Below, one piece after another: positions 7,998 to 63,170 of a stretch of DNA of 64,000 nucleotides. This DNA is from a virus (taxonomy: Duplodnaviria > Caudoviricetes), in the IMG/VR virus record IMGVR_UViG_3300043672_000039, positions 1 to 64,000 of that record. The stretch is one strand, 5' to 3'. A program made the position numbers and the translations under genes. The first letter of the stretch is position 1. Each line of letters opens with the position of its first letter. The notes under the pieces are model-generated. The model was not told where the DNA came from. It ran no database searches and saw nothing but the letters and a program-made list of their open reading frames with translations.

Positions 7998-8023
7998 CGG
8001 TTTCTTATACCCGGGTGACTGTT
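7994..8023 (+). promoter_or_regulatory. Candidate phage promoter TTGACG-N15-GTGACTGTT upstream of major capsid gene
   Basis: Motif recurs at nine gene starts; here 134 nt upstream of MCP ATG. Confidence 0.65.
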
Positions 8024-8157
8024 GGATTGGAAGCTAAAATCTTCTCTGCACCGCTTCCGACAGAGAGTGCCTAAAGGCTGTTTGGCCACAGCAGGTCCGA
8101 AAAACAAACAGTTTTAACCCGTTCCCGAAATGGGAACAAATCGAAAGTAGATACTTT

Positions 8158-9456
8158 ATGGCCTTTTTCTGTGATGATCCCAGTGCAATCAGCGACATAG
8201 CCTCAAAAGACACAAATCGAATTGTGGGCACTATCGCGAAGGCGCTTGCTGCAAACTCAGTTTATATGAACGTCATCGGCGGCGGAGTTTTTCCGTCCGG
8301 CGTGTCAGATGCAATAAGAAGTGTCGTGCAAATGCAGGCCGCTCCCGGTGATTCGCTGGCAATCCCGACCTTCGTTTGTGATACCGAAATCTGCGGTCAG
8401 ACCGGCATTCAGGATTTGACGGACACCGTCGAATTCACTTTGCGCCTTGAGTCGTTCCGTGGGCGCGGTCCCAACATCTGCGTCAAGAAAGGTTACGCGG
8501 CTTTCAAAGGTTCCTACGTCATGGCGGAGGACTCCCTCAAGAAGCTCGTCACCCAGTATATCAACTCGGACGTTCGCGCCCAGTTGTATCTGCGCTCGGC
8601 TTCGAAATTCACCGCGAACGCCAACTACGATTTCGACTCCCTGTTTACCGGGGGTCTCGAAACTGATCTCGGTGTGAAGTTCGCGCCACTGTTGCCCACG
8701 GGTCCAATGACCTTCAAGGCTCTGCACTACATCGCCCGCTACCTGCGCGAAGTTCTTTTCGGCGAGTGGTATGCGCAAGATCAGGGCATGCCTCATTTCC
8801 GTTTCATCGGTGGCGCGGATCAGGTCGAATATTTTCGGTCTGAAGTCGGCGTCCAGAATGTGATGGTCGCTCTTACGACTGGCGGATATAAGCTGGGTGA
8901 AACCACGCTGACCGCTTACTCGTTCGAACAGTCTCCGGCTTACCGGGGTATCGCTTTCGGTGTTGATCAACGTCCGTTGCGTGCAACCGGTTTCAACCCG
9001 GACGGCACCCTCGCGCTGGTTGACCCGGTGACGATTGTCAGCAACCCGGCGCGTAACACCGCCTTCGCCAAACCGAATCCGGCGTGGCTGAATGCTGACT
9101 ACGAAGTCGGCGTGCTCATCGCTGACGGCTCCTTCGAGCGCCTCGTGCCCGAGAAGTATGTCGGTGAAGGAAGTTTCAAATTTGCCCCGCAACTGCACAT
9201 GGGCGAACTCGAATGGCATTACATTGTGGACAACCAATGTAATCAGTGGGGCGATTTTGGTTGGCATAAATACCAAATCACCCGGGCATATCGCCCGCTC
9301 CGTCCTCAACACATTATTCCTATCCTCTACAAACGGTGCCGCGCTGATCTCGGCCTCATCGCTTGTGCGGATAGTCCTTCGTCCAGCTTCTCAGGTTCCG
9401 ATAGTTTCTCGACTATCGGCGTGTGCGGCGACGACGAATCGCCCGTGATTCACTAA
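8158..9456 (+). CDS. Major capsid protein (432 aa)
   Basis: Size, position after scaffold/GT block, strong codon bias, dedicated promoter motif and downstream terminator. Confidence 0.75.
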   Translation: MAFFCDDPSAISDIASKDTNRIVGTIAKALAANSVYMNVIGGGVFPSGVSDAIRSVVQMQAAPGDSLAIPTFVCDTEICGQTGIQDLTDTVEFTLRLESFRGRGPNICVKKGYAAFKGSYVMAEDSLKKLVTQYINSDVRAQLYLRSASKFTANANYDFDSLFTGGLETDLGVKFAPLLPTGPMTFKALHYIARYLREVLFGEWYAQDQGMPHFRFIGGADQVEYFRSEVGVQNVMVALTTGGYKLGETTLTAYSFEQSPAYRGIAFGVDQRPLRATGFNPDGTLALVDPVTIVSNPARNTAFAKPNPAWLNADYEVGVLIADGSFERLVPEKYVGEGSFKFAPQLHMGELEWHYIVDNQCNQWGDFGWHKYQITRAYRPLRPQHIIPILYKRCRADLGLIACADSPSSSFSGSDSFSTIGVCGDDESPVIH

Positions 9457-9483
9457 CACTTCGCGTTAGGGGGAAGCGAACTC

Positions 9484-9515
9484 AGGCGGGGTGGGGAAAC
9501 CCATCCCGCCTTTTT
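9484..9515 (+). terminator. Rho-independent terminator after MCP
   Basis: AGGCGGGGTGGG-GAAA-CCCATCCCGCCT stem followed by T-run. Confidence 0.85.
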
Positions 9516-9530
9516 AGGATAGAAAATTAG

Positions 9531-9965
9531 ATGCGCAAAATGAGGTTTTCTGATACCCTCTCGGACATGACTACGAAAGAGAAACTGTTGGAATTTCAGA
9601 AAGATTTTCCGGACGCGAACTACTCCGAATTGGCGCGTAAAGCGGGGTGTTCAAACGTAAACGCGCAGGTTCATTTGGACCCGGTGTATCGAGCGAAAAA
9701 TCGGGTGTCCAACCGTGATTTTTTACGAAAGAGATGTGAAAAAACCAAGCGGCTTTTGGTGGAATTTTTAGGCGGGTGTTGTTACACATGTGGGTATGAT
9801 ACCGATTTTCGTGCCCTCGATTTTCATCATAAAGACCCGTCACAAAAAGTTGCGCAGATTACCAATCTGTTGTCCGGTAAAATAGAAAACGCAATCGACG
9901 AAGCCCGTAAATGCGTTCTTCTCTGTTGCCGTTGTCACCGGGAGCTTCACGCAAAGGAAATTTAA
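9531..9965 (+). CDS. HNH endonuclease with N-terminal HTH
   Basis: NYSELARKAG HTH; CYTCGY...ALDFHH...EARKCVLLCCRCHRELH. Confidence 0.85.
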   Translation: MRKMRFSDTLSDMTTKEKLLEFQKDFPDANYSELARKAGCSNVNAQVHLDPVYRAKNRVSNRDFLRKRCEKTKRLLVEFLGGCCYTCGYDTDFRALDFHHKDPSQKVAQITNLLSGKIENAIDEARKCVLLCCRCHRELHAKEI

Positions 9966-9966
9966 T

Positions 9967-11004
9967 ATGGCAGACGACCAAAATACAGATTACAAACAGG
10001 CGGATTCCCAGTATAATATTCTGCGGAAGATTCTCGCGCGACTCAATCTCGGCATTTCCACGTCCGGTGGTGGAGGCGGCGGAGGCGGGGGCGGAGCAGT
10101 CACTATCGCCGACGGCGCGGATGTCGCGGAGGGCGCGAAGGCGAACGCTGCCGCAACCGACTCAACTTCGGCGTGGTCGGTTGTTTCTCTGCTTAAGGGG
10201 CTTTATGCAAAGCTCTCCGGAACCTTGACGGTCGGCGGCACCGTGGCGGTTAGCAATTTACCCGCGACTCAGCCGGTATCCGGCACAGTTGCAGTTTCTA
10301 ATTTTCCCGCGACTCAACCCGTTTCTGGCACAGTTGCGGTGTCATCTATCGGCGCGGGAGCCGCAGTCATCGGGCACGTCATTGCCGATACTGGATCGAC
10401 AACCGCAGTCACCGGAAACGTCGCGGTGACGAGCGCCGGGCTTACGAATATCGACGTTGCGTTGAGCACTCGGCTTAAACCGGCGGACACACTCGCGGCG
10501 GTCACAACTGTTACTACTGTCTCCGCGCTCACGAGCGGGAATGTGGGTGGGTTCACCAACGTCCAAAAAGATACGACTGCGGTCAGCACTACCCCGGCGT
10601 ATTCCATTGGGGATGCTGTTGGCGCTAAACGGACGTTTGCGAATGCCGTCCGGGTTTCCGGCGGCTCTGGAGTGCTACAATCCGTTACTATTCTCGACCG
10701 CGCAAATCAAAAAGCGGGTATGACGCTTTTCATTTTCGATGCCGACCCGACGAACGCAACGATTACGGACAATGCCGCGTTTGTATTCAGCACGGACGAT
10801 TTGAAAGTGATCGCGCAGATTTCAATTGCTGCGGGGGATTATGTCACTACGAACAGCAAAGCGGTAGCCATCGTTTCCGGGCTCTCAATCCCGGTGAAAG
10901 CGTCCGGCTCCGCGAGCTTGTTCGCGGCTCTCGTCACGACCGGCACGCCGACTTTTGTGGCGACGACCGACGTTCAGTTGACCCTAGGAATTCTCCAAGA
11001 CTAA
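9967..11004 (+). CDS. Putative virion structural protein, Ala/Thr/Val/Gly-rich
   Basis: Poly-Gly stretch; 15-aa repeat GTVAVSN(L/F)PATQPVS at 10237-10347; beta-rich C-terminus. Confidence 0.6.
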   Translation: MADDQNTDYKQADSQYNILRKILARLNLGISTSGGGGGGGGGGAVTIADGADVAEGAKANAAATDSTSAWSVVSLLKGLYAKLSGTLTVGGTVAVSNLPATQPVSGTVAVSNFPATQPVSGTVAVSSIGAGAAVIGHVIADTGSTTAVTGNVAVTSAGLTNIDVALSTRLKPADTLAAVTTVTTVSALTSGNVGGFTNVQKDTTAVSTTPAYSIGDAVGAKRTFANAVRVSGGSGVLQSVTILDRANQKAGMTLFIFDADPTNATITDNAAFVFSTDDLKVIAQISIAAGDYVTTNSKAVAIVSGLSIPVKASGSASLFAALVTTGTPTFVATTDVQLTLGILQD

Positions 11005-11870
11005 TGCCCAACTCAGTTCTAATCAAACGTTTAAACGGCATCAAGCCGTTGTCCCCTTTGAATAAGGACTGGTTGCGTCGCATCCTCAACGCAGGCGGGG
11101 TTCGTCCGTCTCGGACGCAGTTCAAGATTAATGATCAGTTTTATAAAGAACTGGTCAACGGAGGAATTGATTCAAAGGTCATCGTTGCTAATCTTTTCCT
11201 TTCGGCGACTGATTTGCCGACCGCTTATACTCCTCTGATCGCTAATAACGGAAGCGATTCGTGGCCGGACACGGGCAGCACTGGGTCAATTGCAGACCTG
11301 ACGATTAACGGGCTCAAACGGTCGGTGGGTGGGGGCAATAATCGGTTCCTCGAAAGCGGGGTTCTTCCGGGCAATTTTATGACTTCCGGCTCTGGTCACG
11401 GAACTGTTTACGTCACCGAGGATAGTAAAACGGCGAATGAAGTTGAATGGGGTTGTGCAAACGGCGCGGGCACGAATGACATTCGTATGTTTGCGCACTT
11501 GAGCGATAATAACACCTATGCGTATTTTTTCGCGCAAACACGATTGCTGACGGCTTCTGTTACCACGGGAAATTTAACCGGATATCTCTGCGCTTCTCGA
11601 ACGACTACGACTCGTTCCGATATCTATTTCGCCAATTCCTCTACCGTGCATGCCAGTGTCGCAAATGATACCGGAACTTGCACGACTGCGCCGTCTGCAA
11701 TTGTGGGAATGAAAATTTATGCGGATTCTCAAAATGGAACGGTAAGCGCATTCAGTAATAAACGGTTAAGTGCCGTAACCTTCGGAACGGCTCTTACCGC
11801 AGCCGAATCCCTCATCCTTTTCAATGCCATTCAAAATGCCCGAAAAGCATTCGGTGGCGGATTTGCATAA
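11004..11870 (+). CDS. Putative virion/fibre protein (288 aa)
   Basis: Overlapping stop/start; Thr/Ser/Asn-rich beta-type composition. Confidence 0.55.
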   Translation: MPNSVLIKRLNGIKPLSPLNKDWLRRILNAGGVRPSRTQFKINDQFYKELVNGGIDSKVIVANLFLSATDLPTAYTPLIANNGSDSWPDTGSTGSIADLTINGLKRSVGGGNNRFLESGVLPGNFMTSGSGHGTVYVTEDSKTANEVEWGCANGAGTNDIRMFAHLSDNNTYAYFFAQTRLLTASVTTGNLTGYLCASRTTTTRSDIYFANSSTVHASVANDTGTCTTAPSAIVGMKIYADSQNGTVSAFSNKRLSAVTFGTALTAAESLILFNAIQNARKAFGGGFA

Positions 11871-12073
11871 TGAACAACGAAGTTAGTAACAAAACGCTCG
11901 GGGCAGTTGCCGCAATTAACCTATCGGTCGCGGGCCTTCGGGCTGTCTCCGATTATTTTCTTGCGCATATTGTCCCGATTCTGTCCGGTGTCGCGGTGGT
12001 TATTCAAGTCGCGATTGGTGTCGTGACTCTATACCATCTGTTGAAGAATAAAAAGAATAAAGATGAAAAATAA
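11870..12073 (+). CDS. Small membrane protein, holin-like
   Basis: 67 aa, hydrophobic helices and basic C-tail KNKKNK. Confidence 0.5.
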   Translation: MNNEVSNKTLGAVAAINLSVAGLRAVSDYFLAHIVPILSGVAVVIQVAIGVVTLYHLLKNKKNKDEK

Positions 12074-13330: not shown

Positions 13331-13340
13331 AAGATAATAT

Positions 13341-14604: not shown

Positions 14605-14621
14605 CTTTGAGGAAATAATTT

Positions 14622-15855: not shown

Positions 15856-15863
15856 GCGGGCAG

Positions 15864-15872
15864 GTGACTGTT
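15864..15872 (+). promoter_or_regulatory. GTGACTGTT motif
   Basis: 17 nt upstream of ATG 15890. Confidence 0.55.
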
Positions 15873-15889
15873 AGATATAGTGAACAATT

Positions 15890-16228: not shown

Positions 16229-16229
16229 C

Positions 16230-21507: not shown

Positions 21508-21516
21508 GTGACTGTT
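21508..21516 (+). promoter_or_regulatory. GTGACTGTT motif
   Basis: 6 nt upstream of ATG 21523. Confidence 0.65.
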
Positions 21517-22929: not shown

Positions 22930-23391
22930 GTGACTATTAGAAAAAGAAGCAGTGCGGTAGTCAAGCAACTTGAAGTGAACGATTTATGGCCTGTGTTGAA
23001 TCATCTGGTCGAGAACTTTCCGAGAAAGAAATTTCTCTCGGAACCGATCAACGTGGATTATCTCGCTTCGAGTTGGAGCAGCTTAATGAAAAACGGCAGT
23101 GCGGTCGCATACGCAACCTTTTTAGATTCAAAGCCCTCTGGGGTCTTGCTCGGTTTGTTGACGCCGGACTTGCACAACGGGAAACTTCAGGGGGTAGAGT
23201 TTTTCTGGACCGGAAGCAACACGCTTCCCCTTTTGGATATGTTTGAAGCAGAATGCAAAGCTCGTGGATGTTACCGGGTGGTCGCCGGACTTTGGGGGCA
23301 AGCCATCGGGCCTCGGGCTCCGGTGTTGCGCCGATTTTATCGTAGCCGGGGGTATTCGCCAGAAGCGGAATCCTTTTCGAAAGTGTTGTAA
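22930..23391 (+). CDS. GNAT-like acetyltransferase preceding ejection proteins
   Basis: GVLLGLL, EFFW, LLDMFEAECKARGC, RRFYRSRGY; probable GTG start at 22930. Confidence 0.6.
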   Translation: MTIRKRSSAVVKQLEVNDLWPVLNHLVENFPRKKFLSEPINVDYLASSWSSLMKNGSAVAYATFLDSKPSGVLLGLLTPDLHNGKLQGVEFFWTGSNTLPLLDMFEAECKARGCYRVVAGLWGQAIGPRAPVLRRFYRSRGYSPEAESFSKVL

Positions 23392-25056: not shown

Positions 25057-26556
25057 ATGGCTGGACTAGGCGGAGCACCCGCACAACAAATTCAAGCTGG
25101 GATTGCGCCACAACCTTTGGTGACTGGTGCGCCCCCGTTGTCGCCCACACTGCTCAACGCTTTTCGTGACGGATTCATTACCGCCGACGACATCTTTGAA
25201 CGAATCAGCGCGACGACGAAGGCGAAGAAAAAGGCTGAGTTGCAAATGGCGACGGAAGCTACGTCTCCGGAATCAATTGAAGCTCGGAAACAGGTTGTAG
25301 CGGCTCAAGCGGCTCAAGCGCAGCTTGCACAACAGCAAGCCGCCGCTTCTGGTCCGCTCGTTGCTCCCCAAGCCGCACTGAGTGCCGCAGAGATTGCTGC
25401 AAAACAGCAGTTGCTTCCGGCGCAAACGGAACTGACCGCGCAGCAATTGGAAATGAATTCAAAGTTCATGTTCCCGAAAGCTTTGTATGATATCGCAACC
25501 GAGCGGTTGAAGGTCGTCAACCCGGTGAAGCGAGTCGATCCGGCGAACGGAGCCGAATACACTCAGATGTTGAACGCGGCTGGTGAAGATGTGACCCCCG
25601 GTAGCCCGGCGCATGCCACTTACTCGCGCATTGCGCAAGGTGCTTTTTCTAATCTGTCTCCCGGTGGTTCGCCGCAAGTCGCCCCGAAAGCAACCGTTGC
25701 CCCGGCGGCACCGGTAGTCGCTCCGGCGGCTGCTCCTTCGGCTATGGTTACGCCGAATGTAGCTGCTCCTGTGACTGTTTCCCCGCTCGCGGGTAATCAA
25801 ACTCGCGCGGCCTTGATGGAACATCCAGCTTTCTCCGGCGTCCCGGGTTCGACGATTGCGGCTATGTCTGATGCCGACGCTGCTGATGCCCTCGTCAAAG
25901 CAAATCGTTCCGTTCCGCCGTCGCCCTCCGTCATTCAGCCGAAAGCTCCGTCAATGGCATACACTCCCGGAGTTGGATTGCAAACCGGAATGCGTTCGAT
26001 TAAAGATCGGGCTCTCGTTCCGGCTGAAGGTGTGGAAAAACTCGCTTTGGCCTCGCAGGCCAAATCCACGGCGGACCGATTGCAGAAAGCATACGCGGAT
26101 TTGATTCAGTCTGACCCTCAATTCACCGGACTCATCAACGGCACGATTACGAAGGCGGTAGCGGGGAAACGATGGAACGAAAAAGTTGCCGCCTTCGAAC
26201 GTGAAGCTACAGCAATTCTCGCGCCAGTCGCCAAGGGAACCTATAATGAAACCGGCGTGCTGAGTGATAAAGATGTCGAGCGATACAAAAATGTGTTGCC
26301 GGATTTGCGAGATACTCCTAGAGTGGGCAACGAGAAAATGCAACGGCTCATCAACGAAGTGAATTCGGCTTACTCGAACAAAATCGAAATGTGGAAGAAA
26401 GCGGGATACGATGTCGGTAATCTTGGTGCGGATAGCTCCGCCGCGACTGCGCCGACTCCCTCAGTCACCCCTGTTGCTGGCAAGCTGGTCACGATTCCCG
26501 GGCTCGGGACTGGCACCTATGACCCGGCAACCGGTCTTTTCACCCGGACGCAGTAA
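25057..26556 (+). CDS. Putative ejection protein (499 aa)
   Basis: Ala/Pro-rich helical protein in ejectosome position. Confidence 0.55.
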   Translation: MAGLGGAPAQQIQAGIAPQPLVTGAPPLSPTLLNAFRDGFITADDIFERISATTKAKKKAELQMATEATSPESIEARKQVVAAQAAQAQLAQQQAAASGPLVAPQAALSAAEIAAKQQLLPAQTELTAQQLEMNSKFMFPKALYDIATERLKVVNPVKRVDPANGAEYTQMLNAAGEDVTPGSPAHATYSRIAQGAFSNLSPGGSPQVAPKATVAPAAPVVAPAAAPSAMVTPNVAAPVTVSPLAGNQTRAALMEHPAFSGVPGSTIAAMSDADAADALVKANRSVPPSPSVIQPKAPSMAYTPGVGLQTGMRSIKDRALVPAEGVEKLALASQAKSTADRLQKAYADLIQSDPQFTGLINGTITKAVAGKRWNEKVAAFEREATAILAPVAKGTYNETGVLSDKDVERYKNVLPDLRDTPRVGNEKMQRLINEVNSAYSNKIEMWKKAGYDVGNLGADSSAATAPTPSVTPVAGKLVTIPGLGTGTYDPATGLFTRTQ

Positions 26557-33818: not shown

Positions 33819-33982
33819 AAGATAAAAATGAAATACAAAATTCTGAATTGGTCGCCTCTGCTCCTGTTGCTGTCTCTGGTGCTCTTGGCGGGGATTTTTG
33901 GGATGAAGTCGAAGCGCGTTCGCAAATTCGAGAAAACGCGCAGCCCGAAGTTTCAGCAAGACCCGGGGTCGAAAAGGAGTGA
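33815..33982 (+). CDS. Small hypothetical protein (55 aa)
   Basis: ATGA overlap; translated by hand MKDKNEIQNSELVASAP... Confidence 0.45.
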   Translation: MKDKNEIQNSELVASAPVAVSGALGGDFWDEVEARSQIRENAQPEVSARPGVEKE

Positions 33983-33987
33983 CTGTT
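33979..33987 (+). promoter_or_regulatory. GTGACTGTT motif
   Basis: 5 nt upstream of ATG 33993. Confidence 0.65.
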
Positions 33988-37011: not shown

Positions 37012-37508
37012 ACATGCTTAAGATGTTTCTTGGCCCAATGCCAGAGCCAAATTGCGTCAATTGCATCATCCGAGAGGGTAACCGATTTCCATCGCGGATA
37101 CAACAAGTAAAGTGACGCCGCCATCATTTCTTTGGTAGCGCCGCCATGCCCGGTAGCAAATTTTTTCAAGGTGCCGGTAGGAACACATTCGATTATAACA
37201 CCGCTCCGCGCACCAAAAGCGCACCACACCGCCGCCCGAAAGCTCGACCAAAGCTGAACCTGATAGGTTGAGGAAGCAAACTGCACGTCTTCAAAAATCA
37301 CTATATCAGCTTTACACTCATTCAGTTGAGAATAAAGGCTCATTACGCGCGGATCACATCTTCGAGTCATTCTCGTCTTACCGTATTCAGTAATCATTTT
37401 ACGAGATGCGAGTTTCCACGTTCCGGCATACTCCGGTTTTGAATCCATGTCTATCCCCATGGCGTAACCAGTATCGGTGCCTAAATCAAGTGCGAGGATT
37501 TTCTTCAT
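37008..37508 (-). CDS. RuvC-like Holliday junction resolvase
   Basis: ILALDLGT, VIFED, TLKKFATGHG.ATK, DDAIDA. Confidence 0.85.
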   Translation of the reverse strand: MKKILALDLGTDTGYAMGIDMDSKPEYAGTWKLASRKMITEYGKTRMTRRCDPRVMSLYSQLNECKADIVIFEDVQFASSTYQVQLWSSFRAAVWCAFGARSGVIIECVPTGTLKKFATGHGGATKEMMAASLYLLYPRWKSVTLSDDAIDAIWLWHWAKKHLKHV

Positions 37509-38221
37509 TCGAGTTTCTTGCTGCGCATCAGTTCGTTTCGGATTTTGCGCAGCGCCTTTGAATGAGTGCTCTGAGCCGCCGAGCGGGTTGTCGCCGTCAG
37601 GTCTCCGATTTGCTGAAAGTTTAGGTGCCCCCGGTAAACTAAATCGATGACCATTTGTTCTTGCTCGGTAAGTTTTTTCTTGATGATGTCTTCGACGATC
37701 TTCAGGCGTTCTCGAAAATCTATACTTCTGAAATCAGCTTCCTCATGGGGCTCAATTACGTGTTCGAAAGCTGGTTTGAAATTCCAATCCTCATACTCGT
37801 TTAGCTCAAGTTCAGGGTCCGTAAGTCCACCGCCCGGAAGAAACACTGCCGCCCAACCATTGTGCAAATATTTTGTGGTTTCTTCCTCATGCAAGCTCGA
37901 ATGTTTTACAACATCAATCGTTTTCCAATAGTCACTTATCTCACCACGGATGGCAATTTTTGAGAACGCCATGAAACGCAGCGTGCCGGGCCGGAAACGT
38001 TTTGCAGACCGGCGAAGCGCGAGATAGCACAGACTGAACAACTCGTCGTCAGCGATTTTGTTCCGGCACACGCGTTTCGAATAGAGAAAAGCGTCTCGCA
38101 TGGTGTGCAGCACGAGCGAGTTTATGTCGTCATCGTTCTTGTCGTGCTGGATTTTGCGGGCGAGATCGAATTCCTGATCGCGCGTGAAAACATCGGGAGG
38201 CAGTGATTCAAGTAGCTTCAT
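37505..38221 (-). CDS. Phage-encoded sigma70-family RNA polymerase sigma factor
   Basis: FTRDQEFDLARKI (region 1.2), LCYLALRRSAKRF.P..LRF..F...IRGEI (region 2), LTEQEQMVIDL.Y..LNFQQIG...KALRKIR (region 4). Confidence 0.85.
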   Translation of the reverse strand: MKLLESLPPDVFTRDQEFDLARKIQHDKNDDDINSLVLHTMRDAFLYSKRVCRNKIADDELFSLCYLALRRSAKRFRPGTLRFMAFSKIAIRGEISDYWKTIDVVKHSSLHEEETTKYLHNGWAAVFLPGGGLTDPELELNEYEDWNFKPAFEHVIEPHEEADFRSIDFRERLKIVEDIIKKKLTEQEQMVIDLVYRGHLNFQQIGDLTATTRSAAQSTHSKALRKIRNELMRSKKLE

Positions 38222-40415
38222 TGGGGACGGTAAAAATTGAAACGGTTTGAGGCTCCGGCGCGGAGACCTGCGGGGGTGCCGCAACTTGGGTTGTCCGGCT
38301 GAATTTCCAGACGCGGGTATTGATTGGCCCGGTCTCAGCCGTGCATTGCATCAAACCTTCTTTCTGAATCTGTTCGAGATAGCGGGAGACCTGCTCTAGT
38401 TTGATCGAATGAAGGACGTATTCATTCAAGGGATTCGTCGCGAGCATCTTGATGAGCTTTGATACCGAGCCGCGCCATTCTGTTAGGTCCGGCTGACCGT
38501 CGAACAACTCTTGCAGCGATTCGATCAACAATTCTTTGAAGGGTGCGCTTGGGTTGCTCTGCTGAGATTGCTCAAGCAACGTTTGCTCTTGAAAGGACGC
38601 GAATCCGTAACGTGAGTCCCGCTCAATTTCCTCCGGCGCTATCCAATCGATGAGCCAGCGTAGGAAGTAGGGTAGCTCCGCCTGAATGAGTTGTTTCGTT
38701 TCCGCGCGGCTCGGGAATTTGAACCGGGACGCCGCCGCGCATTTGAATAAGCACGTCTTGTCGAGGGAGGAATTGTCCATCGGTCCGACGATTCGACTGC
38801 TAACAAAGTCTAAGTTAGTCGTGCAGCCGATTCGCCCCATCCATTCGGTCATCCCGGAGACCTGAAATTTTTCGTTCGCCAAGTGCTGCTGATTCGCCGC
38901 CGTCTTCTTGAACATCGCATGGAGCTTGGCGTTTGCAGTCGGGGAGTTTGACGGCGTATCATCATCAAGACACCAATGGGGGACGTGCATCAAGTGCGAA
39001 TTGAACACCGAGCCCTCGACAAGGTAATCAGACGCATCGATGAACCCGCCAACCGCGACGCCGATTATTTGCCGGTTGATGAGAGTCTTTCCAATGCCGA
39101 CACCGCCCATCAAGAACATATTTTGTCCGGGCATCGGGTTCTGAAACCACGAGGAGCAATAGTAGTATTGAAACCACGCTAGGAAGTGCGGAAGTTGTGA
39201 CGCCGGGTCGAACAGTGCGTCAAGCAACTTCGAAAGGAACGGGAATTTTCCTTGCTCTCCCCACTCTTGAGCCCCCTCCGCAGGTGCCGTGGGCTTGTGG
39301 ATGTAAGTATTGAGCATCCGCTCACCGAGAAAGTCGAGGGGTCCAGACGCGCGGAACACAAATGGGACTGCGGCCTTGATACGGTTGTGATTGAAAATGT
39401 GGCTCAGTGCTTTGTCGAGCGGAGATACGCCGGACTTGTCCGCTTTATTACTCAGCGCACAATCGACCTTCAGGTAATTGGTAATTTCTTTTTCACCTAG
39501 CGACGCATACATTCCCCGAATCTTTCGCCAAACCCTTTTGGAATCCCACCAGACATCCATGGTTGCCTTAGTGATGCTGCTCTCAGAGAATTGCTTTACG
39601 AAATCGTTACCGAGGATATCCGCCCACGTCGAAAATGGTTTGGCGGCATGCGCAGAAAAAGAAAACATGCCGGTCGGTTTGACGATTGCAGAGAGGGGCG
39701 ATGTGCTTTCCGGAATCCAGAAGCTTGGGCCTTGCGACTCGACCGCGAATTCACCCGGCCAGTTCATGTTCGGGTATTTTTCCTTCAACGCTTTTTCAAC
39801 GATGTCGAGCGGGATATCGGTTTCGTTCGCAGGCCGGAAACGAAACTTGCGCCCGCAGTCCACGAAGAACGCTTGCAACGCGGGCTCGGAAATTTGCGGA
39901 AGATTCGTCGCTTTCCAAACGCAACCATTGCAAAGCAGACGGCTTGGGGCTTGGAATGCGGGGGCATCAAATGCCGGTAACATATCGAGTTGCAACCATT
40001 TAATCGCGGCTTCGAGAACGAAGGCGCAAAAAGCGTATTCATCAACGAGCAGGGGGCGGGGGAGTATCCAGACGAGTCGAACATTGCCGCCGAGGGAACG
40101 TTCGACCCACTGTGGGGGATACGGCATCGCGGCGATAGCCTCAGAGACTCTGGCGTCCGGGATATTAACATCGTAGTCAGCGGCAAAGGCATGGATTTTA
40201 TGAGGACTGTTCTCCTTGCCCGGGCGCATATTCGCATTAATCGCTTCGATCCCGCTATAAAAAGAATGATTAGTTGCAGGATTGGCATACCACGCCTGTC
40301 GATCTTCTTTACTTCCCCGAATTTGTGCAGTTATTTTTTCTGTGGGAATGAATTCCCACGGAATACTGGGTATGACGGACTGTTCTGTAAGATTTTTTGC
40401 AGCAAAGAATATCAT
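38208..40415 (-). CDS. Primase-polymerase / helicase (DNA primase-helicase)
   Basis: N-terminal AFAADYD...SLGGNVRLVW prim-pol-like region; GGVGIGKT Walker A and LDDD Walker B. Confidence 0.8.
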   Translation of the reverse strand: MIFFAAKNLTEQSVIPSIPWEFIPTEKITAQIRGSKEDRQAWYANPATNHSFYSGIEAINANMRPGKENSPHKIHAFAADYDVNIPDARVSEAIAAMPYPPQWVERSLGGNVRLVWILPRPLLVDEYAFCAFVLEAAIKWLQLDMLPAFDAPAFQAPSRLLCNGCVWKATNLPQISEPALQAFFVDCGRKFRFRPANETDIPLDIVEKALKEKYPNMNWPGEFAVESQGPSFWIPESTSPLSAIVKPTGMFSFSAHAAKPFSTWADILGNDFVKQFSESSITKATMDVWWDSKRVWRKIRGMYASLGEKEITNYLKVDCALSNKADKSGVSPLDKALSHIFNHNRIKAAVPFVFRASGPLDFLGERMLNTYIHKPTAPAEGAQEWGEQGKFPFLSKLLDALFDPASQLPHFLAWFQYYYCSSWFQNPMPGQNMFLMGGVGIGKTLINRQIIGVAVGGFIDASDYLVEGSVFNSHLMHVPHWCLDDDTPSNSPTANAKLHAMFKKTAANQQHLANEKFQVSGMTEWMGRIGCTTNLDFVSSRIVGPMDNSSLDKTCLFKCAAASRFKFPSRAETKQLIQAELPYFLRWLIDWIAPEEIERDSRYGFASFQEQTLLEQSQQSNPSAPFKELLIESLQELFDGQPDLTEWRGSVSKLIKMLATNPLNEYVLHSIKLEQVSRYLEQIQKEGLMQCTAETGPINTRVWKFSRTTQVAAPPQVSAPEPQTVSIFTVPNEAT

Positions 40416-44146: not shown

Positions 44147-44174
44147 AATATAACACAGATTGTTTAAACGTCAA
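44147..44174 (-). promoter_or_regulatory. Sigma70-type promoter TTGACG-N16-TATATT
   Basis: Intergenic, upstream of SprT-like gene. Confidence 0.55.
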
Positions 44175-47676: not shown

Positions 47677-47871
47677 TCAGCGTCCCATTACTTGTTTGCG
47701 CATAGCGTCCCGAGCGGGTGCCCCTGTCGGACGCCAGTCCGAGTGCTCGACTGCGTTGAGCAGTCTTTTTTGGGCTTGTGCTTTTGCGGGAGTTGTCGAT
47801 TTGCTTTTGGTTCCGCCGGGCGTGGATACCCGGACCTTTCCGCCTTTGAGTTTTCGCAGAGTTACTGGCAT
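47677..47871 (-). CDS. Small basic protein (64 aa), possible DNA-binding
   Basis: MPVTLRKLKGGKVRV...KAQAQKRLLNAVEH; preceded by promoter motif. Confidence 0.75.
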   Translation of the reverse strand: MPVTLRKLKGGKVRVSTPGGTKSKSTTPAKAQAQKRLLNAVEHSDWRPTGAPARDAMRKQVMGR

Positions 47872-47878: not shown

Positions 47879-47908
47879 AACAGTCACCTTTCCATTCTCC
47901 GGTGTCAA
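47879..47908 (-). promoter_or_regulatory. TTGACA-N15-GTGACTGTT promoter motif
   Basis: 7 nt upstream of ATG 47871. Confidence 0.7.
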
Positions 47909-48283: not shown

Positions 48284-48311
48284 AAGATAGCAGAACGGCG
48301 TCGGTTGTCAA
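48284..48311 (-). promoter_or_regulatory. Sigma70 promoter TTGACA-N16-TATCTT, leaderless
   Basis: -10 element 6 nt from ATG 48277. Confidence 0.7.
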
Positions 48312-48706: not shown

Positions 48707-48735
48707 AAGATAACGTATCGGCGGTTAGTTGTCAA
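48707..48735 (-). promoter_or_regulatory. Sigma70 promoter TTGACA-N17-TATCTT, leaderless
   Basis: -10 element 6 nt from ATG 48700. Confidence 0.75.
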
Positions 48736-55096: not shown

Positions 55097-55101
55097 GACG
55101 T

Positions 55102-55841: not shown

Positions 55842-55844
55842 ATA

Positions 55845-56153: not shown

Positions 56154-56157
56154 AAAT

Positions 56158-56732: not shown

Positions 56733-56740
56733 GGCGAAGC

Positions 56741-57324: not shown

Positions 57325-57415
57325 TATAGTAGGGCTCGGTGGTTGAGATCGAGGAGGGATTTGTATTTCATACGTTAGCGGGTTTTGCGGGCGGAGTTGT
57401 AAAGTTTAATCAACG

Positions 57416-58358: not shown

Positions 58359-59161
58359 TACGATACGCTACCACCATCGCCATCAGTTGCACAACTAATA
58401 TTTACAGAAAAAATTGGTGGGCTCGATTGATCACCGATTGGTGTCGTGGGCGGATCGCCGAAATACGGTTGCGGACTCGGTGGAACCGGTGTGACGTTCG
58501 GAGGATACACCAGAGTAGGTCGTGCAGAGCCCGGCACATAGTCCGCAGGTATCAGGCTCCGCCGGTCGATGCTGCGTTCGATTGCGTCGAGTCGTTTATC
58601 AATCGAGTCGAGACGCTCGATGATCTTGGATGTGGATTTTTCAAACTCACCCGCAATCGTTTTGTATTGAGGACGCGTCTTGTCGGCACAGTCTTCGCGA
58701 AGCTGCCCTGCGGCAATGAGTGCAGCCTCAATCTGAAGCAGGGACGAGACGATGTCGTGCTCATTTTCATTGTCGAGCTTCGCGCGGTTGAAGGTGATGT
58801 TGAAATCGTCATCGGTTGGCTTTTTGTAGGCGTCACGCCGATATTTCCAGAAGCGATACACAATCATGTCGGCAAGCCGGAACGCCTGTTCATATTCATG
58901 GAGCCCGAAGACTCCCCACGTTCGTTGCTGACCACCGAGGTAGGATTTGACAAACCATTTGTTCGCGACGGCATACACGTTCGAGGCTTTACCTTCAGAT
59001 CGCCGGTCAGCGATGGCAACCTCGGACGGCGTCAGCTTGGTCTGGGGCATGCACGTTCGCAGGTTCGAGAAGGCGAGACGGATCAGGTCTTGCTGCACGC
59101 GGGTTTGAGCGAAAGAACGAGAGTCCGCCGATTCGCCCTGAGAAAATGAGTCATTTTGCAT
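58358..59161 (-). CDS. Hypothetical protein with AP2-like segment and Pro-rich tail
   Basis: NKWFVKSYLGG..RTWGVF..EQAFRLAD; ATG 7 nt after promoter motif. Confidence 0.7.
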   Translation of the reverse strand: MQNDSFSQGESADSRSFAQTRVQQDLIRLAFSNLRTCMPQTKLTPSEVAIADRRSEGKASNVYAVANKWFVKSYLGGQQRTWGVFGLHEYEQAFRLADMIVYRFWKYRRDAYKKPTDDDFNITFNRAKLDNENEHDIVSSLLQIEAALIAAGQLREDCADKTRPQYKTIAGEFEKSTSKIIERLDSIDKRLDAIERSIDRRSLIPADYVPGSARPTLVYPPNVTPVPPSPQPYFGDPPTTPIGDQSSPPIFSVNISCATDGDGGSVS

Positions 59162-59168
59162 ACAATCC

Positions 59169-59198
59169 AACAGTCACCGGGGGAGTGGGTGATGTCAA
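59169..59198 (-). promoter_or_regulatory. TTGACA-N15-GTGACTGTT promoter motif
   Basis: 7 nt upstream of ATG 59161. Confidence 0.7.
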
Positions 59199-59248
59199 GA
59201 ACGAAATTGAAGATGCGTAGGCGAGTCGGCGTTTCGCCGTGATGATGG

Positions 59249-59434
59249 GTATCTATGTTTTAGAGCGAATGCGGTGACAACTTTTTATTATCGATGTATG
59301 GACAGTTAAAGGTCTCCTGTATCTATATTAAATTAATTCACACATATATTAAAATACATCATATTAAACATCTTTAGCTGTTCATACTTCGATAATAAAA
59401 AGTTGTCGTCGTGTTCGCTCTAAAACATAGATAC
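59249..59434. repeat. 63-bp imperfect inverted repeat flanking a 60-bp AT-rich core (candidate origin/terminus)
   Basis: Arm 59249-59311 matches reverse complement of 59372-59434 (TATCTATGTTTTAGAGCGAA...GACAACTTTTTATTATCGA...). Confidence 0.85.
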
Positions 59435-59485
59435 GCATTATTTATTAGATTTATCACTTTTTATCTGCGCCCGAGCATTTTCTAG

Positions 59486-59494
59486 GTGACTGTT
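59486..59494 (+). promoter_or_regulatory. GTGACTGTT motif
   Basis: 6 nt upstream of ATG 59501. Confidence 0.7.
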
Positions 59495-59500
59495 GGATTG

Positions 59501-59641
59501 ATGGCCTCGACCAAGAAACCTGAAGACAGGCTTTTCGCAGACATGAGCCCGGAGCTTCGCAAGCTTCAAAAGCAGGCGCACAAAGAACTTCGCCTGAAGA
59601 AACGCACTGAATGGAAGCTAAAAAATCTTCAACCGCAGTAA
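59501..59641 (+). CDS. Small basic protein (46 aa) MASTKKPEDRLFADM...
   Basis: Translated by hand; follows promoter motif. Confidence 0.65.
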   Translation: MASTKKPEDRLFADMSPELRKLQKQAHKELRLKKRTEWKLKNLQPQ

Positions 59642-59826
59642 TCTTTCCCTGCCGGTATTGCGGCAACCCACTTCCGCACTTGCCGAGCGACTCACCCTCG
59701 GATTATCGAACGCGGAAATACTGCTCCGCACCGTGCCGCGCAAAGGGGAGGCGTGATTTGGTGAGAGACCTAAAGGCTGATATGCGAAGGGTCGGCGCAC
59801 TGATCCAACAGATCAACGATTTATGA
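59611..59826 (+). CDS. Small Zn-finger protein (71 aa)
   Basis: CRYCG...RKYCSAPC. Confidence 0.7.
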
Positions 59827-60788
59827 AGCGCGCTTTTCTCACCGGCGTCACGGGCCAAGACGGAAGTTATCTCTCCGAGTTGTTGCTCGGCAAAGGTTAC
59901 GAGGTTCACGGACTTGTGCGGCGCACCAGCACCTATAACCGTCAGAGGATTGCGCATCTCGAATCCAATCCAGCGTTTAAACTTCACTATGGAGACTTGA
60001 GCGAGGGCTCCTCAATCTCGCGACTGCTCAACGCGATTGAGCCGAATGAGGTTTACAATCTCGGTGCTCAATCCCACGTTCAGGTGAGCTTCTTGAATCC
60101 GGAATACACGGCAGACGTGGACGCAACAGGCACGATTCGATTGCTAGAAGCAGTGCGATGCATGCGGCATCGTCCGAGATTCTATCAGGCATCTTCAAGC
60201 GAAATGTTCGGCAAGGTCGCAGAGATTCCGCAGACTGAAACAACTCCATTCTATCCACGCAGTCCGTATGGTTGCGCCAAAGTATTTTCGTATTGGGCCA
60301 CAGTCAACTATCGCGAAGCGTATGGGCTCCACGCGAGTAACGGTATTCTGTTCAATCACGAATCCCCGCGCCGTGGCGATACGTTCGTGACTCGGAAGAT
60401 CACGCAAGCGGTCGCGCGTATTAAGCTCGGGCAACAGAAGCAACTTGCTCTCGGCAATCTCAACGCTCAGCGTGATTGGGGATACGCAGCAGACTTCGTC
60501 GAGGCAATGTGGTTGATGCTTCAGCAGGATGTGCCCGGCGATTACGTTGTGGCAACGAACGAAATGCACACCGTTGCTGAATTCTGCCAGCTTGCTTTTC
60601 ATTACGTTGGCTTGGACTGGCGCAAGTATGTCGTGCATGATCCACAGTTCGACAGGCCCGCAGAGGTTGATCAATTGCTCGGGAGTTATGCGCGTGCTGA
60701 GCGCGTGCTCGGATGGAGACCGAAGACCAAGTTTGCTGAGCTTGTTCGGATCATGGTGGATCACGATTTGATGAAGGCCGAAGCATGA
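59823..60788 (+). CDS. gmd: GDP-mannose 4,6-dehydratase
   Basis: [67 protein letters not shown]. Confidence 0.97.
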
Positions 60789-61405
60789 GCCAACATAATC
60801 GAGAACTGGTGGATAAAGCTTTAGCGACTGCAATGGCAGATCGTAGCGCATGCGTGAAGTATGAGGTTGATCAAGATCAGGCGTTCTTGTTGTATGCAAC
60901 GTTCTGTTGCGATGTTGAACGCACTGCACACGCAGTCAATGTAAAGCCTGCGGACATCATCCAAATGGCAGAGCAGGGTGGATGGAATGAGAAGCTACGC
61001 GGCATCATTGAGCTAAAGAAATCTGGCAGAGCAGGCGATGTTGAACGCGCGGTCAATCGTGCAATCAATTACGTTCAGGCTCACCGATTGCGTGAATTCC
61101 TTCAGCGTGTGCTTCAGCACATCTTTGGGCAACCATTGGAGAACATTGAAGAATGGATGTTTTCCATGCAGTATTCAAAAGGCCAAGAGGAGCCCGTAAA
61201 GAAGTTCACCACTCGACCGCTTGCGGACTTGGCAGTTGCATTGGAGAAGTGTCATTTGCTCACATATATGGCTCTGGGCGACTCAGCCTCGGAGCGCCGT
61301 GGACGCGACACCGCACCGGACGCAGACTTGAGTAGCGGAGACCTTCACGCGAAGATTGCTGCGGCGATGTCCAAAGAGGTTACGGTCACAGCCAAAGTTC
61401 TCTGA
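60785..61405 (+). CDS. Possible terminase small subunit
   Basis: N-terminal HTH-like [10 protein letters not shown]...AEQGGWNEK, helical body; position at start of late arm. Confidence 0.35.
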
Positions 61406-61753
61406 ATTCTGAACAGAGAGAAATCAAGTTAGGCTCACCTAACATTCTTCAATGTAACTACATTTCTTTGGCGTTCCTCCAATAGTTAGACTAAGCGAAA
61501 TCCGAGCGTCGGGCTCGCGTTCAGTCGATTATTGCAGCCGCCCTCCTCGACTTCACGCCCTCATAACGATACGGCTCGACGACTGTCCGCAATCCTACAG
61601 GAATGGTATTCGGCGACACGTTCCCGAGCGGGATCGACGCCCCGGAGCCCCGGCGGACCGTAAAAACGGCTCGGGGGGAAATTCGCTTGACAACTCTCGC
61701 TTAGTGGTGATACCTAGAAACGAAAAAACCGTATCGCGACCCCCTTAATTTAG

Positions 61754-61762
61754 GTGACTGTT
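61754..61762 (+). promoter_or_regulatory. GTGACTGTT motif
   Basis: 7 nt upstream of ATG 61770. Confidence 0.65.
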
Positions 61763-61769
61763 GTAATTG

Positions 61770-62402
61770 ATGTCAGAGTTTAAGGATATTTGTTCTGCGA
61801 AAAAATCGACCCCGCTAGAGAAGGATTTAAAATTTTTGGATTGGGCGATTCGGATTGTTCGACGGCGGATCACATTTCGGGAACGAAAGGTGCTTCGTAT
61901 GGCGCGATGGCGAAAAACGGCTCTGGTGAGATATCATTCCGGCGAAAATGTTGCCCGGCAGATGCGCGAACGAAAGCGCACGTTGGAACGAGCGTTTAGA
62001 CGTGTGCTTCGACGTGAATCCCGGCAAAAAATAAAAAATCAGATCGGGATCGAAAAGGCATACCGGCGCGTTTTACTCCGGCAAAATAATCAGATAGAAA
62101 TAAAACTCGCCAATCGGCTTCGCCGTCGTTTTGAGAAAGCTTTCCGGCATAGAAAATCATCTCGCATCTGTATGGAACTGACCGGCACGTCCGTTGCTGG
62201 ACTCCGGGCGCATCTTGAATCACTTTTCAAATCCGGGATGACGTGGGAGAACTACGGGTTTTGGGGCTGGCACATCGATCACATTAAACCGGTATGTTCT
62301 TTCGATTTGAAGTTGCCAGAGCATCAACGCGCCTGCTTTCATTACAGCAATCTTCAGCCTCTCTGGAAATCGGAGAACCTCGAAAAGGGTAGGAAACATT
62401 AG
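61770..62402 (+). CDS. HNH homing endonuclease (paralog of 3895 and 16230)
   Basis: GMTWENYG..WHIDHIKP..SFDL..EHQRACFHYSNLQPLW. Confidence 0.85.
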   Translation: MSEFKDICSAKKSTPLEKDLKFLDWAIRIVRRRITFRERKVLRMARWRKTALVRYHSGENVARQMRERKRTLERAFRRVLRRESRQKIKNQIGIEKAYRRVLLRQNNQIEIKLANRLRRRFEKAFRHRKSSRICMELTGTSVAGLRAHLESLFKSGMTWENYGFWGWHIDHIKPVCSFDLKLPEHQRACFHYSNLQPLWKSENLEKGRKH

Positions 62403-62439
62403 TTGTGGAAAACCCGCTCGCCGTGCTATCGTCATTCCA

Positions 62440-62577
62440 ATGAAAACTAAATTTCGTCTCGGCATTCGGTATCTCGTCTATTGGGACTTTCGGATTCGCG
62501 GCGTTTTTCTCTCTTGGGTAAGAGAGCACCGCCGAATGGTCGGGCTTCCTCCAGTCGGTTCGCCGTGGGACCAATAG
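62440..62577 (+). CDS. Small hypothetical protein (45 aa)
   Basis: Translated by hand MKTKFRLGIRYLVYW... Confidence 0.4.
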   Translation: MKTKFRLGIRYLVYWDFRIRGVFLSWVREHRRMVGLPPVGSPWDQ

Positions 62578-62583
62578 GATTTT

Positions 62584-62772
62584 ATGGCCGCACACATCTC
62601 GCCTGACACAGAATTGGAGACCGTGCCTTGCACGTATTGCGCTACGCCCACGACGATGACTGGCACCAAGCTTTGTGACCGGTGCTGGGAATTGCGCGGG
62701 CGCATCTCCCGAGACCCGGTGCTGGCAAAGAGAATGCTGGACGAGATTACCAACAATGAAAAAACGGAATGA
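62584..62772 (+). CDS. Small Zn-finger protein (62 aa)
   Basis: CTYC..PT.MTGTKLCDRCWE. Confidence 0.75.
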   Translation: MAAHISPDTELETVPCTYCATPTTMTGTKLCDRCWELRGRISRDPVLAKRMLDEITNNEKTE

Positions 62773-62932
62773 ATTTCACGTCCATCCCTTCACCGGGATT
62801 CTGTTCGGCGCTCTCATCGTCAGGCCATGGCGGACGAAGGCCCTGCCCAAGGCGCGGGTGATGCACGTCCACGTTTGGAATATTATCTCGCCGCGCGGTC
62901 GGCTGATGAAGGCAAACTTTATCCTTAACTGA
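62756..62932 (+). CDS. Small hypothetical protein (58 aa)
   Basis: ATG at 62756 overlapping previous gene. Confidence 0.45.
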   Translation: MKKRNEFHVHPFTGILFGALIVRPWRTKALPKARVMHVHVWNIISPRGRLMKANFILN

Positions 62933-62933
62933 T

Positions 62934-63140
62934 ATGAAACGAAAGTTCAAACCCCGGGCAACCCTGACGTTGCACAACTTTTCCAAACTGTCCTCCGCCG
63001 AGCGTGAAGCAGTTTTTTCATGGATGACGCGGCAACTCACGATGTTGATTCAACAGCCGGAAAGCTTTGCGGACCGATATACCGCGCGATTTCTCGTCCC
63101 GAAGATCAAGGCAACGGTCCGGCGCAAAGAAAGATATTGA
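62934..63140 (+). CDS. Hypothetical protein (68 aa)
   Basis: ATG 1 nt after previous stop. Confidence 0.6.
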   Translation: MKRKFKPRATLTLHNFSKLSSAEREAVFSWMTRQLTMLIQQPESFADRYTARFLVPKIKATVRRKERY

Positions 63141-63161
63141 TCGTCAGAGGGAGCCCGGCGA

Positions 63162-63170
63162 GTGACTGTT
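63162..63170 (+). promoter_or_regulatory. GTGACTGTT motif
   Basis: 7 nt upstream of ATG 63178. Confidence 0.65.

What the first reader, a model, noticed from the sequence alone, without database searches (positions are those of the whole stretch)
8015..63170. GTGACTGTT regulon: probable promoter of the phage sigma factor, giving near-leaderless mRNAs
A by-eye scan found the 9-mer 10 times, where about 0.5 is expected by chance on both strands: 8015, 15864, 21508, 25771, 33979, 59486, 61754 and 63162 (+), and 47879 and 59169 (-). Seven copies lie 5-7 nt before an ATG, one is 17 nt before an ATG, one heads the MCP leader and one is intragenic. Three copies (7994, 47903, 59193) have TTGAC(A/G) exactly 15 nt upstream, so GACTGT falls where a -10 box would at 17-nt spacing. 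The genome encodes a sigma70-family factor (37505-38221). Inference: that sigma keeps a host-like -35 preference, reads a new -10, and starts transcription at or near the ATG.
Basis: partly seen in the sequence, partly recalled or inferred. Interest (0 to 1): 0.8.

Follow-up and report, generated by a model that had tools for sequence, protein, structure and literature searches.

The report
Phage promoter box abutting start codons
GTGACTGTT is very probably the core (-10-type) box of this soil phage's own promoters, set so close to start codons that the messages have almost no leader and probably read by the phage's own sigma factor: a known phage strategy with a new motif.

Summary
GTGACTGTT occurs 10 times in the window (0.22 expected) and 13 times in the 73-kb phage genome. 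Twelve copies lie in the roughly 5% of non-coding DNA and point at the next gene. Ten lie 5-8 nt before a start codon.

It is a promoter box. At the capsid-gene promoter of 14 of 19 related phages, TTGAC and an xACT core sit 17 bp apart (16 in one) and are the only conserved upstream columns. Transcription should then start on, or 1-2 nt before, the ATG.

Relatives lack GTGACTGTT. Each has its own version (cTGACTAT, cCGACTGT, gTAACTAT, GCACTGT and others). All encode a sigma factor that is only 19-44% identical between most genomes, while capsid proteins are 66-97% identical. The sigma residue aligned with sigma-28 R80, which contacts base -12, tracks the -12 base in 18 of 19 genomes. Only about 2 independent contrasts exist, so this is suggestive.

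The same genomes also carry canonical TTGACA-N16/17-TAnnnT-6 nt-ATG promoters, probably read by the host sigma.

The "host-like -35" part is weak: 3 of 13 copies here and 16 of 170 sites in 13 genomes of the clade have a -35 box. No RNA 5' end is mapped.

This scan has reported the same kind of system in other phages, so this is a new member of a known kind.

The parts
8015..8023 (+). GTGACTGTT box of the major capsid gene promoter; -10 hexamer GACTGT
   Evidence: Orthologous TTGAC-N17 (N16 in one)-xAC(T) promoters in 14 of 19 genomes.
7994..7999 (+). -35 box TTGACG, 17 bp before GACTGT
8024..8157 (+). 134-nt capsid mRNA leader; its conserved blocks start about 7 nt after the box
9485..9515 (+). 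GC-rich hairpin plus T-run after the capsid gene (terminator-like)
   Evidence: sequence printed
15864..15872 (+). box 17 nt before ATG 15890 (112-aa ORF)
21508..21516 (+). box 6 nt before ATG 21523 (274-aa virion-type protein)
   Evidence: Orthologues align from residue 1.
22930..22938 (+). one-mismatch copy GTGACTATT in the intergenic gap before ORF 22986-23246
25771..25779 (+). intragenic copy inside ORF 25057-26556, with no start codon nearby; function doubtful
33979..33987 (+). box 5 nt before ATG 33993 (232-aa ORF)
47879..47887 (-). box 7 nt before ATG 47871 (conserved 64-aa protein)
   Evidence: The orthologous promoter is present in about 12 relatives, each with its own -12 base.
47903..47908 (-). 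-35 box TTGACA
59169..59177 (-). box heading the leftward (replication and sigma) arm, 7 nt before ATG 59155
59193..59198 (-). -35 box TTGACA
59486..59494 (+). box heading the rightward arm, 6 nt before ATG 59501 (45-aa ORF)
61754..61762 (+). box 7 nt before ATG 61770 (EndoVII/HNH-like endonuclease)
63162..63170 (+). box 7 nt before ATG 63178 (113-aa ORF)
37505..38284 (-). phage sigma-70-family factor with regions 2 and 4, nearest FliA/sigma-28. A111 (numbered from the TTG start at 38284) aligns with sigma-70 W434 / sigma-28 R80.
48707..48735 (-). canonical promoter TTGACA-17-TATCTT, 6 nt before ATG 48700
48284..48311 (-). canonical promoter TTGACA-16-TATCTT, 6 nt before ATG 48277
44147..44174 (-). 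canonical promoter TTGACG-16-TATATT after a hairpin, with GTTTAAAC in the spacer; upstream of the sigma gene on the same strand

Best explanation
GTGACTGTT is the core recognition box of this phage's own promoter class. GACTGT occupies the -10 position, with A at -11 and T at -7. GT lies at -14/-13 and T at -6. Because the start codon follows 5-8 nt after the 9-mer, RNA polymerase should begin on the A of the ATG or 1-2 nt before it, which gives leaderless or near-leaderless mRNAs.

The box most likely is read by host core polymerase carrying the phage sigma factor (37505-38284). It mostly works without a -35 box. A TTGACA at 17 bp is added at the capsid promoter and at the two promoters of the replication arm.

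The sigma gene itself would first be expressed from canonical host-type promoters on the same strand (48735, 48311, 44174).

Shown: the motif statistics, its positions, the conserved promoter geometry in relatives, the sigma family membership, the second promoter class, and the residue-to-base correspondence.

Inferred: the transcription start site, which sigma reads the box, and the order of expression.
For: 1. Enrichment and placement. There are 10 copies against 0.22 expected and 13 in the genome. Twelve of 13 are intergenic and co-oriented with the next gene.

2. Promoter geometry. In 14 of 19 related genomes the capsid promoter is TTGAC(N)-17 bp (16 in one)-xAC(T)nnT. In the alignment, TTGAC and ACT are the only strongly conserved upstream columns. 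The promoter of the 64-aa gene has the same geometry in several relatives.

3. Start codons. Orthologues align from residue 1. Over 13 genomes of the clade (this one and 12 relatives), 107 of 170 genome-specific boxes have an ORF start 3-13 nt after the hexamer, with a mode of 6 nt.

4. Two copies sit back to back at the strand switch (59169 and 59486). Another follows a tRNA gene and a hairpin with a T-run (68479). No upstream transcript is therefore available to be processed at these sites.

5. Sigma link. Every relative has the sigma gene. It is 19-44% identical between genomes (one pair 70%) while capsids are 66-97% identical. Each genome has its own -14 to -12 bases. The residue aligned with sigma-70 W434 / sigma-28 R80 is A or G where -12 is G (8 of 9), Y, H, S or D where it is C (9 of 9), and R where it is A (1 of 1). 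Additional contigs agree, including a second R/A pair on a new contig. In sigma-28 that residue contacts base -12 (PMC12784957).

6. Canonical TTGACA-N16/17-TAnnnT promoters, whose -10 boxes are not genome-specific, coexist in the same genomes. This implies two specificities.
Against: No RNA 5' end, host or expression data exist.

The residue-to-base correspondence rests on few independent events. Both the sigma tree and the capsid tree are star-like: there are 1-2 contrasts on well-supported branches, and the sign test cannot reach significance.

GACTGT keeps A-11 and T-7, so with a perfect -35 the host sigma could also use three of the copies.

The sigma has a conserved region 4, yet no -35 motif is shared by the other ten copies.

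The head promoter of the arm that carries the sigma gene (59169) is itself of this class.

One copy is intragenic.
Confidence: 0.55

Rival explanations
1. The boxes are promoters, but the host primary sigma reads them as weak -10 elements (A-11, T-7). The phage sigma serves another, unrecognised promoter set.
For: GACTGT keeps the two most critical -10 bases. Capsid promoters across the clade carry a consensus TTGACA at 17 bp. The head promoter of the arm that encodes the sigma is of this class. No other over-represented intergenic motif was found that the phage sigma might read.
Against: Ten of 13 copies have no -35 box. -12 is never T, and C-10/T-9 are invariant. The -14 to -12 bases are genome-specific, whereas primary sigmas are highly conserved. 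Canonical TAnnnT promoters coexist in the same genomes. A sigma residue tracks the -12 base.
Confidence: 0.2
2. The 9-mer is an operator for a phage DNA-binding regulator that overlaps the promoters, not the polymerase recognition element itself.
For: Invariance over 9 bp plus a semi-conserved RGATT downstream is more than most -10 elements show. The site is not a palindrome, so it would need a monomeric binder, which cannot be excluded.
Against: The box occupies the -10 position exactly relative to TTGACA (17 bp) and relative to start codons. In most copies no other candidate -10 element is present. The core ACT is conserved across genomes at the same position.
Confidence: 0.1
3. The motif acts in RNA, either as a non-Shine-Dalgarno ribosome-loading signal or as the cleavage site of a sequence-specific endoribonuclease that trims polycistronic RNA into leaderless messages.
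For: The fixed 5-8 nt distance to start codons is where a ribosome-binding site would sit. No gene in this genome has a Shine-Dalgarno sequence.
Against: The capsid copy is 134 nt from its ATG and has a -35 box. TTGAC lies at a fixed 17 bp in relatives. Two copies are back to back at the strand switch, and one follows a terminator-like hairpin. Operon-internal genes lack the motif.
Confidence: 0.08

Closest known systems
Coliphage phiEco32 middle/late promoters read by the phage sigma gp36 (PMC12276001)
   Same: A phage of about 75 kb. [quoted passage not shown] That sigma recognises a phage-specific box centred near -11 (AATGTA in phiEco32).
   Different: The box sequence differs (GTGACTGTT). 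This sigma is a regular two-domain sigma-70-family protein that passes TIGR02937 and is nearest FliA, not a very distant homologue. No gp79-like cofactor has been identified. Here the promoters abut start codons.
Sigma-28 (FliA/WhiG) holoenzyme and its -10 element (PMC12784957; PDB 6pmi)
   Same: It gives the best sequence match to the phage sigma. It lacks the tryptophan dyad. In sigma-28 the residue at the W434 position (R80) contacts base -12, and that is the position that tracks the -12 base in the phage clade.
   Different: The promoter consensus is different (sigma-28 uses GCCGATAA plus a TAAA -35 box). Scores are far below the FliA family cutoffs, so the phage protein is not a FliA orthologue.
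Phage T4 late promoters (TATAAATA) read by gp55
   Same: A one-piece, -35-independent -10-type box that is repeated unchanged across a phage genome.
   Different: gp55 has no region 4 and needs gp33 and the sliding clamp. The sequence is unrelated, and T4 late mRNAs have leaders with Shine-Dalgarno sites.
Leaderless mRNAs: lambda cI from PRM, middle/late genes of Thermus phage P23-45, and many actinobacterial and Deinococcus genes
   Same: A -10 element ending about 6-7 nt before the start codon, so that the mRNA begins at AUG.
   Different: In those cases the host primary sigma and a TAnnnT box are used. Here both a canonical class and a phage-specific class have this layout.

Membership tests
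Sigma-70 family sigma factor (for ORF 37505-38284) | Region 2 and region 4 domains, scoring above a curated family cutoff | tested here: met
   TIGR02937 scores 55.8 bits against a cutoff of 42.9. Pfam Sigma70_r4 scores 31.3 against 24.1; Sigma70_r2 scores 19.5, below its cutoff of 24. A profile of 19 homologues matches FliA, RpoH, SigA and RpoD chains over regions 2-4.
Sigma-70 family sigma factor (for ORF 37505-38284) | Binds core RNA polymerase and directs initiation | not testable with these tools
   Needs biochemistry.
FliA/WhiG (sigma-28) subfamily | Score above the subfamily cutoff and a GCCGATAA-type promoter | tested here: not met
   TIGR02479 scores 47.1 bits against a cutoff of 189.6, and the motif is different. 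The protein resembles sigma-28 but is not a member.
Sigma-70-type bipartite promoter | -35 and -10 hexamers 17 +/- 1 bp apart, with A at -11 and T at -7 | tested here: met
   Fully met at 3 of 13 copies and at the capsid promoter of 14 of 19 genomes. The other copies have only the -10 part.
Sigma-70-type bipartite promoter | A mapped transcription start 5-9 nt after the -10 hexamer | not testable with these tools
   No RNA data. Indirect support only: the conserved capsid leader begins about 7 nt after the box.
Leaderless mRNA | The -10 element ends 5-8 nt before the start codon, and no Shine-Dalgarno sequence is present | tested here: met
   Ten of 13 copies. The spacing mode is 6 nt over 107 sites in 13 genomes of the clade. 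No Shine-Dalgarno sequence precedes any gene.
Leaderless mRNA | The 5' end of the RNA is at, or within a few nt of, the AUG | not testable with these tools
   Needs 5'-end mapping.
phiEco32 gp36-type promoters | AATGTA box centred at -11.5 | tested here: not met
   The box here is GTGACTGTT. The logic is the same but the sequence and sigma lineage differ.

The most novel reading that the evidence does not exclude
This clade of 70-75 kb soil phages carries fast-diverging, mutually orthogonal sigma/promoter pairs. Each phage's sigma reads its own -14 to -12 bases. The residue at the sigma-70 W434 / sigma-28 R80 position sets the -12 base (A or G for G, Y for C, R for A). All promoters of a genome, including those of incoming cassettes such as homing endonucleases, are re-tuned to the resident sigma. 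A phage tRNA-Met with initiator-like features may support translation of the leaderless messages.
Probability: 0.3. Interest if true: 0.75.

Novelty: new member of a known kind. Interest (0 to 1): 0.5.

Why it matters
The finding gives a promoter map (13 exact boxes, 2-3 near copies and 4 canonical promoters) for an uncultivated but widespread soil phage group. At least 109 contigs in IMG/VR encode a related capsid protein. The host may be Verrucomicrobiota, for which almost nothing is known about phage gene expression.

If the sigma assignment and the residue-to-base rule hold, the clade is a natural library of orthogonal sigma/promoter pairs with a simple specificity determinant. That would be useful for understanding how sigma specificity evolves and for circuit design.

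It also adds a case in which both host-type and phage-type promoters are built to make leaderless mRNAs. This says something about translation initiation in the unknown host.

Tried and rejected
1. A megablast of 12 kb against GenBank phages found no match. Searching for the sigma as a single protein in IMG/VR found nothing. The capsid gave no hit in bacterial genomes and the protein atlas gave no host clue.

2. I looked for the same 9-mer in 80 related loci. It is essentially absent (3 hits in 1.3 Mb), so the motif is genome-specific rather than a conserved clade-wide word.

3. I considered an alternative -10 register, TGn plus T(A/G)GATT downstream of the box. I rejected it because the start site would then fall inside the ORFs and because TTGACA would be 22 bp away.

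4. My own EM motif finder on upstream windows converged on AT-rich start-codon context and was useless. Broad xACT scans were too noisy.

5. Phylogenetically independent contrasts were too few, because both trees are star-like.

6. Attempts to enlarge the data set mostly failed. The sigma alignment was too divergent to scan with and the DNA polymerase found one locus. The 64-aa gene found 80 loci, but only 9 also held the sigma region.

7. CGGACCTGT, enriched in one relative, is a collagen-like coding repeat and not a promoter.

8. Rfam found nothing except the tRNA.

9. Literature searches found no description of this clade or motif.
Full report
**Observation.** GTGACTGTT occurs at exactly the ten stated places in the window, against 0.22 expected from dinucleotide-preserving shuffles (maximum 2). 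The window is bases 1-64000 of a 73,186-bp IMG/VR phage record whose ends repeat. The whole genome has 13 copies, 11 on the + strand and 2 on the - strand; the reversed word as a control gives 1.

Twelve copies lie in the roughly 3.7 kb (5%) of DNA between my ORF calls and point at the next gene. The spacer to the start codon is 5-8 nt for ten copies. It is 17 nt for 15864. Copy 8015 heads a 134-nt leader of the capsid gene, and 25771 is inside an ORF. TTGAC(A/G) lies 15 nt upstream of 8015, 47879(-) and 59169(-). This puts GACTGT 17 bp from the -35 box.

Flanks are weakly conserved: G or A before the box and RGATT after it. The other copies share no -35 motif. A one-mismatch copy, GTGACTATT, sits in the gap at 22930. 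A CCGACTGTT lies 5 nt before the ATG at 67741, outside the window.

**It is a promoter.** The capsid protein has at least 109 relatives in IMG/VR at 71-97% identity. None of the 80 fetched loci uses GTGACTGTT (3 chance-level hits in 1.3 Mb). At the same place upstream of the capsid gene, however, 14 of 19 complete or near-complete genomes have TTGAC(N), 17 bp of variable spacer (16 in one), then xAC(T)nnT. In an alignment of these upstream regions, TTGAC and ACT are the only strongly conserved columns before a conserved leader, which begins about 7 nt after the box.

The promoter of the conserved 64-aa gene (ATG at 47871) has the same geometry in several relatives. Two copies stand back to back at the strand switch (59169 and 59486). 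One follows a tRNA gene and a hairpin with a T-run (68479). At these sites no upstream RNA exists that could be processed there. These points argue against a ribosome-binding or RNA-cleavage role.

**Leaderless layout.** With GACTGT as the -10 hexamer (A at -11, T at -7), the usual start 6-8 nt downstream falls on the A of the ATG or 1-2 nt before it. The start codons are credible, because orthologues align from residue 1. I took the commonest genome-specific 7-mer in 13 genomes of the clade (this one and 12 relatives). Of 170 sites, 107 have an ORF start 3-13 nt after the hexamer. The spacing peaks at 5-8 nt, with a mode of 6. No gene in the genome has a Shine-Dalgarno sequence, and the upstream regions are A/T-rich.

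**Which sigma reads it.** ORF 37505-38284 is a genuine sigma-70-family protein with regions 2 and 4, nearest FliA/sigma-28 but far below that subfamily's cutoffs. Every related genome examined has a homologue. These sigmas are only 19-44% identical between genomes (one pair 70%) while the capsids are 66-97% identical.

Each genome has its own box:
- G003: cTGACTAT
- G007: gCGACTGT
- G010 and G014: cCGACTGT
- G016: gAGACTAT
- G012: gTAACTAT
- G002: aCACTGT
- G015, G017, G020 and G004: GCACT(G/A)T
- G005: two classes, with TTAACA or TTGACA as the -35 box

So the ACT core is shared and the -14 to -12 bases are genome-specific.

In the profile alignment with FliA, the segment K-x-x-(L/I)-R-G matches V-Q-R-I-R-G. 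That segment corresponds to T-W-W-I-R-Q of sigma-70, an equivalence I take from the known FxTYA alignment and not from a computation here. The second x, A111 in this phage, is therefore the W434 / sigma-28 R80 position.

That residue and the -12 base of the capsid promoter go together as follows:
- A or G with base G: 8 of 9 genomes. The exception, G013, has G at another promoter.
- Y, H, S or D with base C: 9 of 9.
- R with base A: 1 of 1.

Additional contigs agree, including a second R/A pair on a new contig. In the Pseudomonas sigma-28 open complex, R80 contacts the -12 base (PMC12784957), which gives a physical reason for the correspondence.

The caveat is that the sigma and capsid trees are star-like. 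Only 1-2 contrasts lie on well-supported branches (up to 6 on the best capsid tree). All go the same way, but a sign test cannot reach significance.

**A second promoter class.** The same genome has canonical promoters:
- TTGACA-17-TATCTT-6 nt-ATG at 48735(-)
- TTGACA-16-TATCTT-6 nt-ATG at 48311(-)
- TTGACA-17-TAATTT-6 nt-ATG at 65664(-)
- TTGACG-16-TATATT at 44174(-), which follows a hairpin

Three leaderless canonical promoters were found against 0.67 expected. Relatives have TTGAC(G/A)-(GTTTAAAC)-TAnnnT-5/6 nt-ATG promoters, and their -10 boxes are not genome-specific. Two distinct -10 types in one genome suggest two specificities: the host primary sigma for the canonical class and the phage sigma for the ACT class.

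The canonical promoters at 48735, 48311 and 44174 lie upstream of the sigma gene on the same strand. They could therefore provide its first expression. This is inference.

**Gene context.** The - strand arm (59155 down to 34855) holds a helicase, an exonuclease, a family A DNA polymerase and the sigma gene. The + strand arm starts with accessory genes: GDP-mannose 4,6-dehydratase, a trypsin-like protease, a serine recombinase and a tRNA-Met. It also holds two paralogous EndoVII/HNH-like endonucleases, each with its own box. It then continues into the virion genes. The dehydratase is most similar (64-68%) to genes of Verrucomicrobiota (Chthoniobacterales, Opitutia), which is a weak hint to the host.

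**Comparison and verdict.** The logic matches phiEco32: host sigma early, phage sigma gp36 later, with an AATGTA box at -11.5 (PMC12276001). It also matches T4 late promoters as a one-piece box. The leaderless layout matches what is known for some phage and bacterial genes.

Earlier follow-ups in this scan reported the same kind of system in other phages. I therefore class this as a new member of a known kind.

Confidence by claim:
- Promoter function: about 0.85.
- Near-leaderless start: about 0.7.
- Reading by the phage sigma: about 0.6.

Noticed in passing
window 11028, 18729, 41301 and 44160-44167; also genome 64608 and 67090: The palindrome (C)GTTTAAAC(G) occurs 11 times in this genome and 7-20 times in most relatives, against about 1 expected. 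It occurs 0-1 times in G005 and G008. Most copies are inside genes, but some lie in the spacer of canonical TTGACG promoters. It may be an operator or another protein-binding or modification site.
   Followed up: partly
window 8024-8157: The 134-nt capsid mRNA leader has blocks conserved across the clade (GAAGC..TAA..GCTTC, GGCCTAA, GCTG.TGGCCACAGC) that look like paired stems. No Rfam family matches it.
   Followed up: partly
L172:9359-9434 (genome 68359-68434, outside the window): A phage tRNA-Met (anticodon CAT) has initiator-like features read by hand: a U1-U72 mismatch, A11:U24, and two G:C pairs at the foot of the anticodon stem. It lies just before box 68479. An initiator tRNA could favour translation of leaderless mRNAs.
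   Followed up: partly
window 61770-62402 and L172:12491-13066 (genome 71491-72066): Two paralogous EndoVII/HNH-like endonuclease genes, probably homing endonucleases, each carry their own GTGACTGTT box. Mobile cassettes appear to be fitted with the resident promoter.
   Followed up: partly
L172:8722-8743 (genome about 67722-67743): The gene at 67741, just after the serine recombinase gene, is preceded by CCGACTGTT 5 nt before its ATG. That is the box version typical of relatives G010 and G014, so the gene may be a recently imported cassette.
   Followed up: no
L172:6630-6684 (genome 65630-65684): A canonical leaderless promoter (minus strand, driving a 64-aa ORF) and a GTGACTGTT promoter (plus strand, driving a 73-aa ORF) overlap back to back. 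The arrangement is conserved in relative G003. It resembles a small genetic switch, and a serine recombinase gene lies 1.2 kb away.
   Followed up: partly
window 37505-38284 and homologues in G001-G020: The sigma gene is one of the fastest-evolving genes of the clade: 19-44% identity between phages whose capsids are 66-97% identical. It is never preceded by its own box.
   Followed up: yes
whole window: No Shine-Dalgarno sequences were seen anywhere. Regions before start codons are A/T-rich and many genes overlap by ATGA. The GDP-mannose dehydratase gene (59823-60788) is closest to Verrucomicrobiota genes.
   Followed up: partly
window 59171-59485: The 315-bp gap between the two divergent boxes holds long inverted repeats around an AT-rich core, as earlier notes also say. 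It may be an origin of replication or a control region. I did not analyse it.
   Followed up: no
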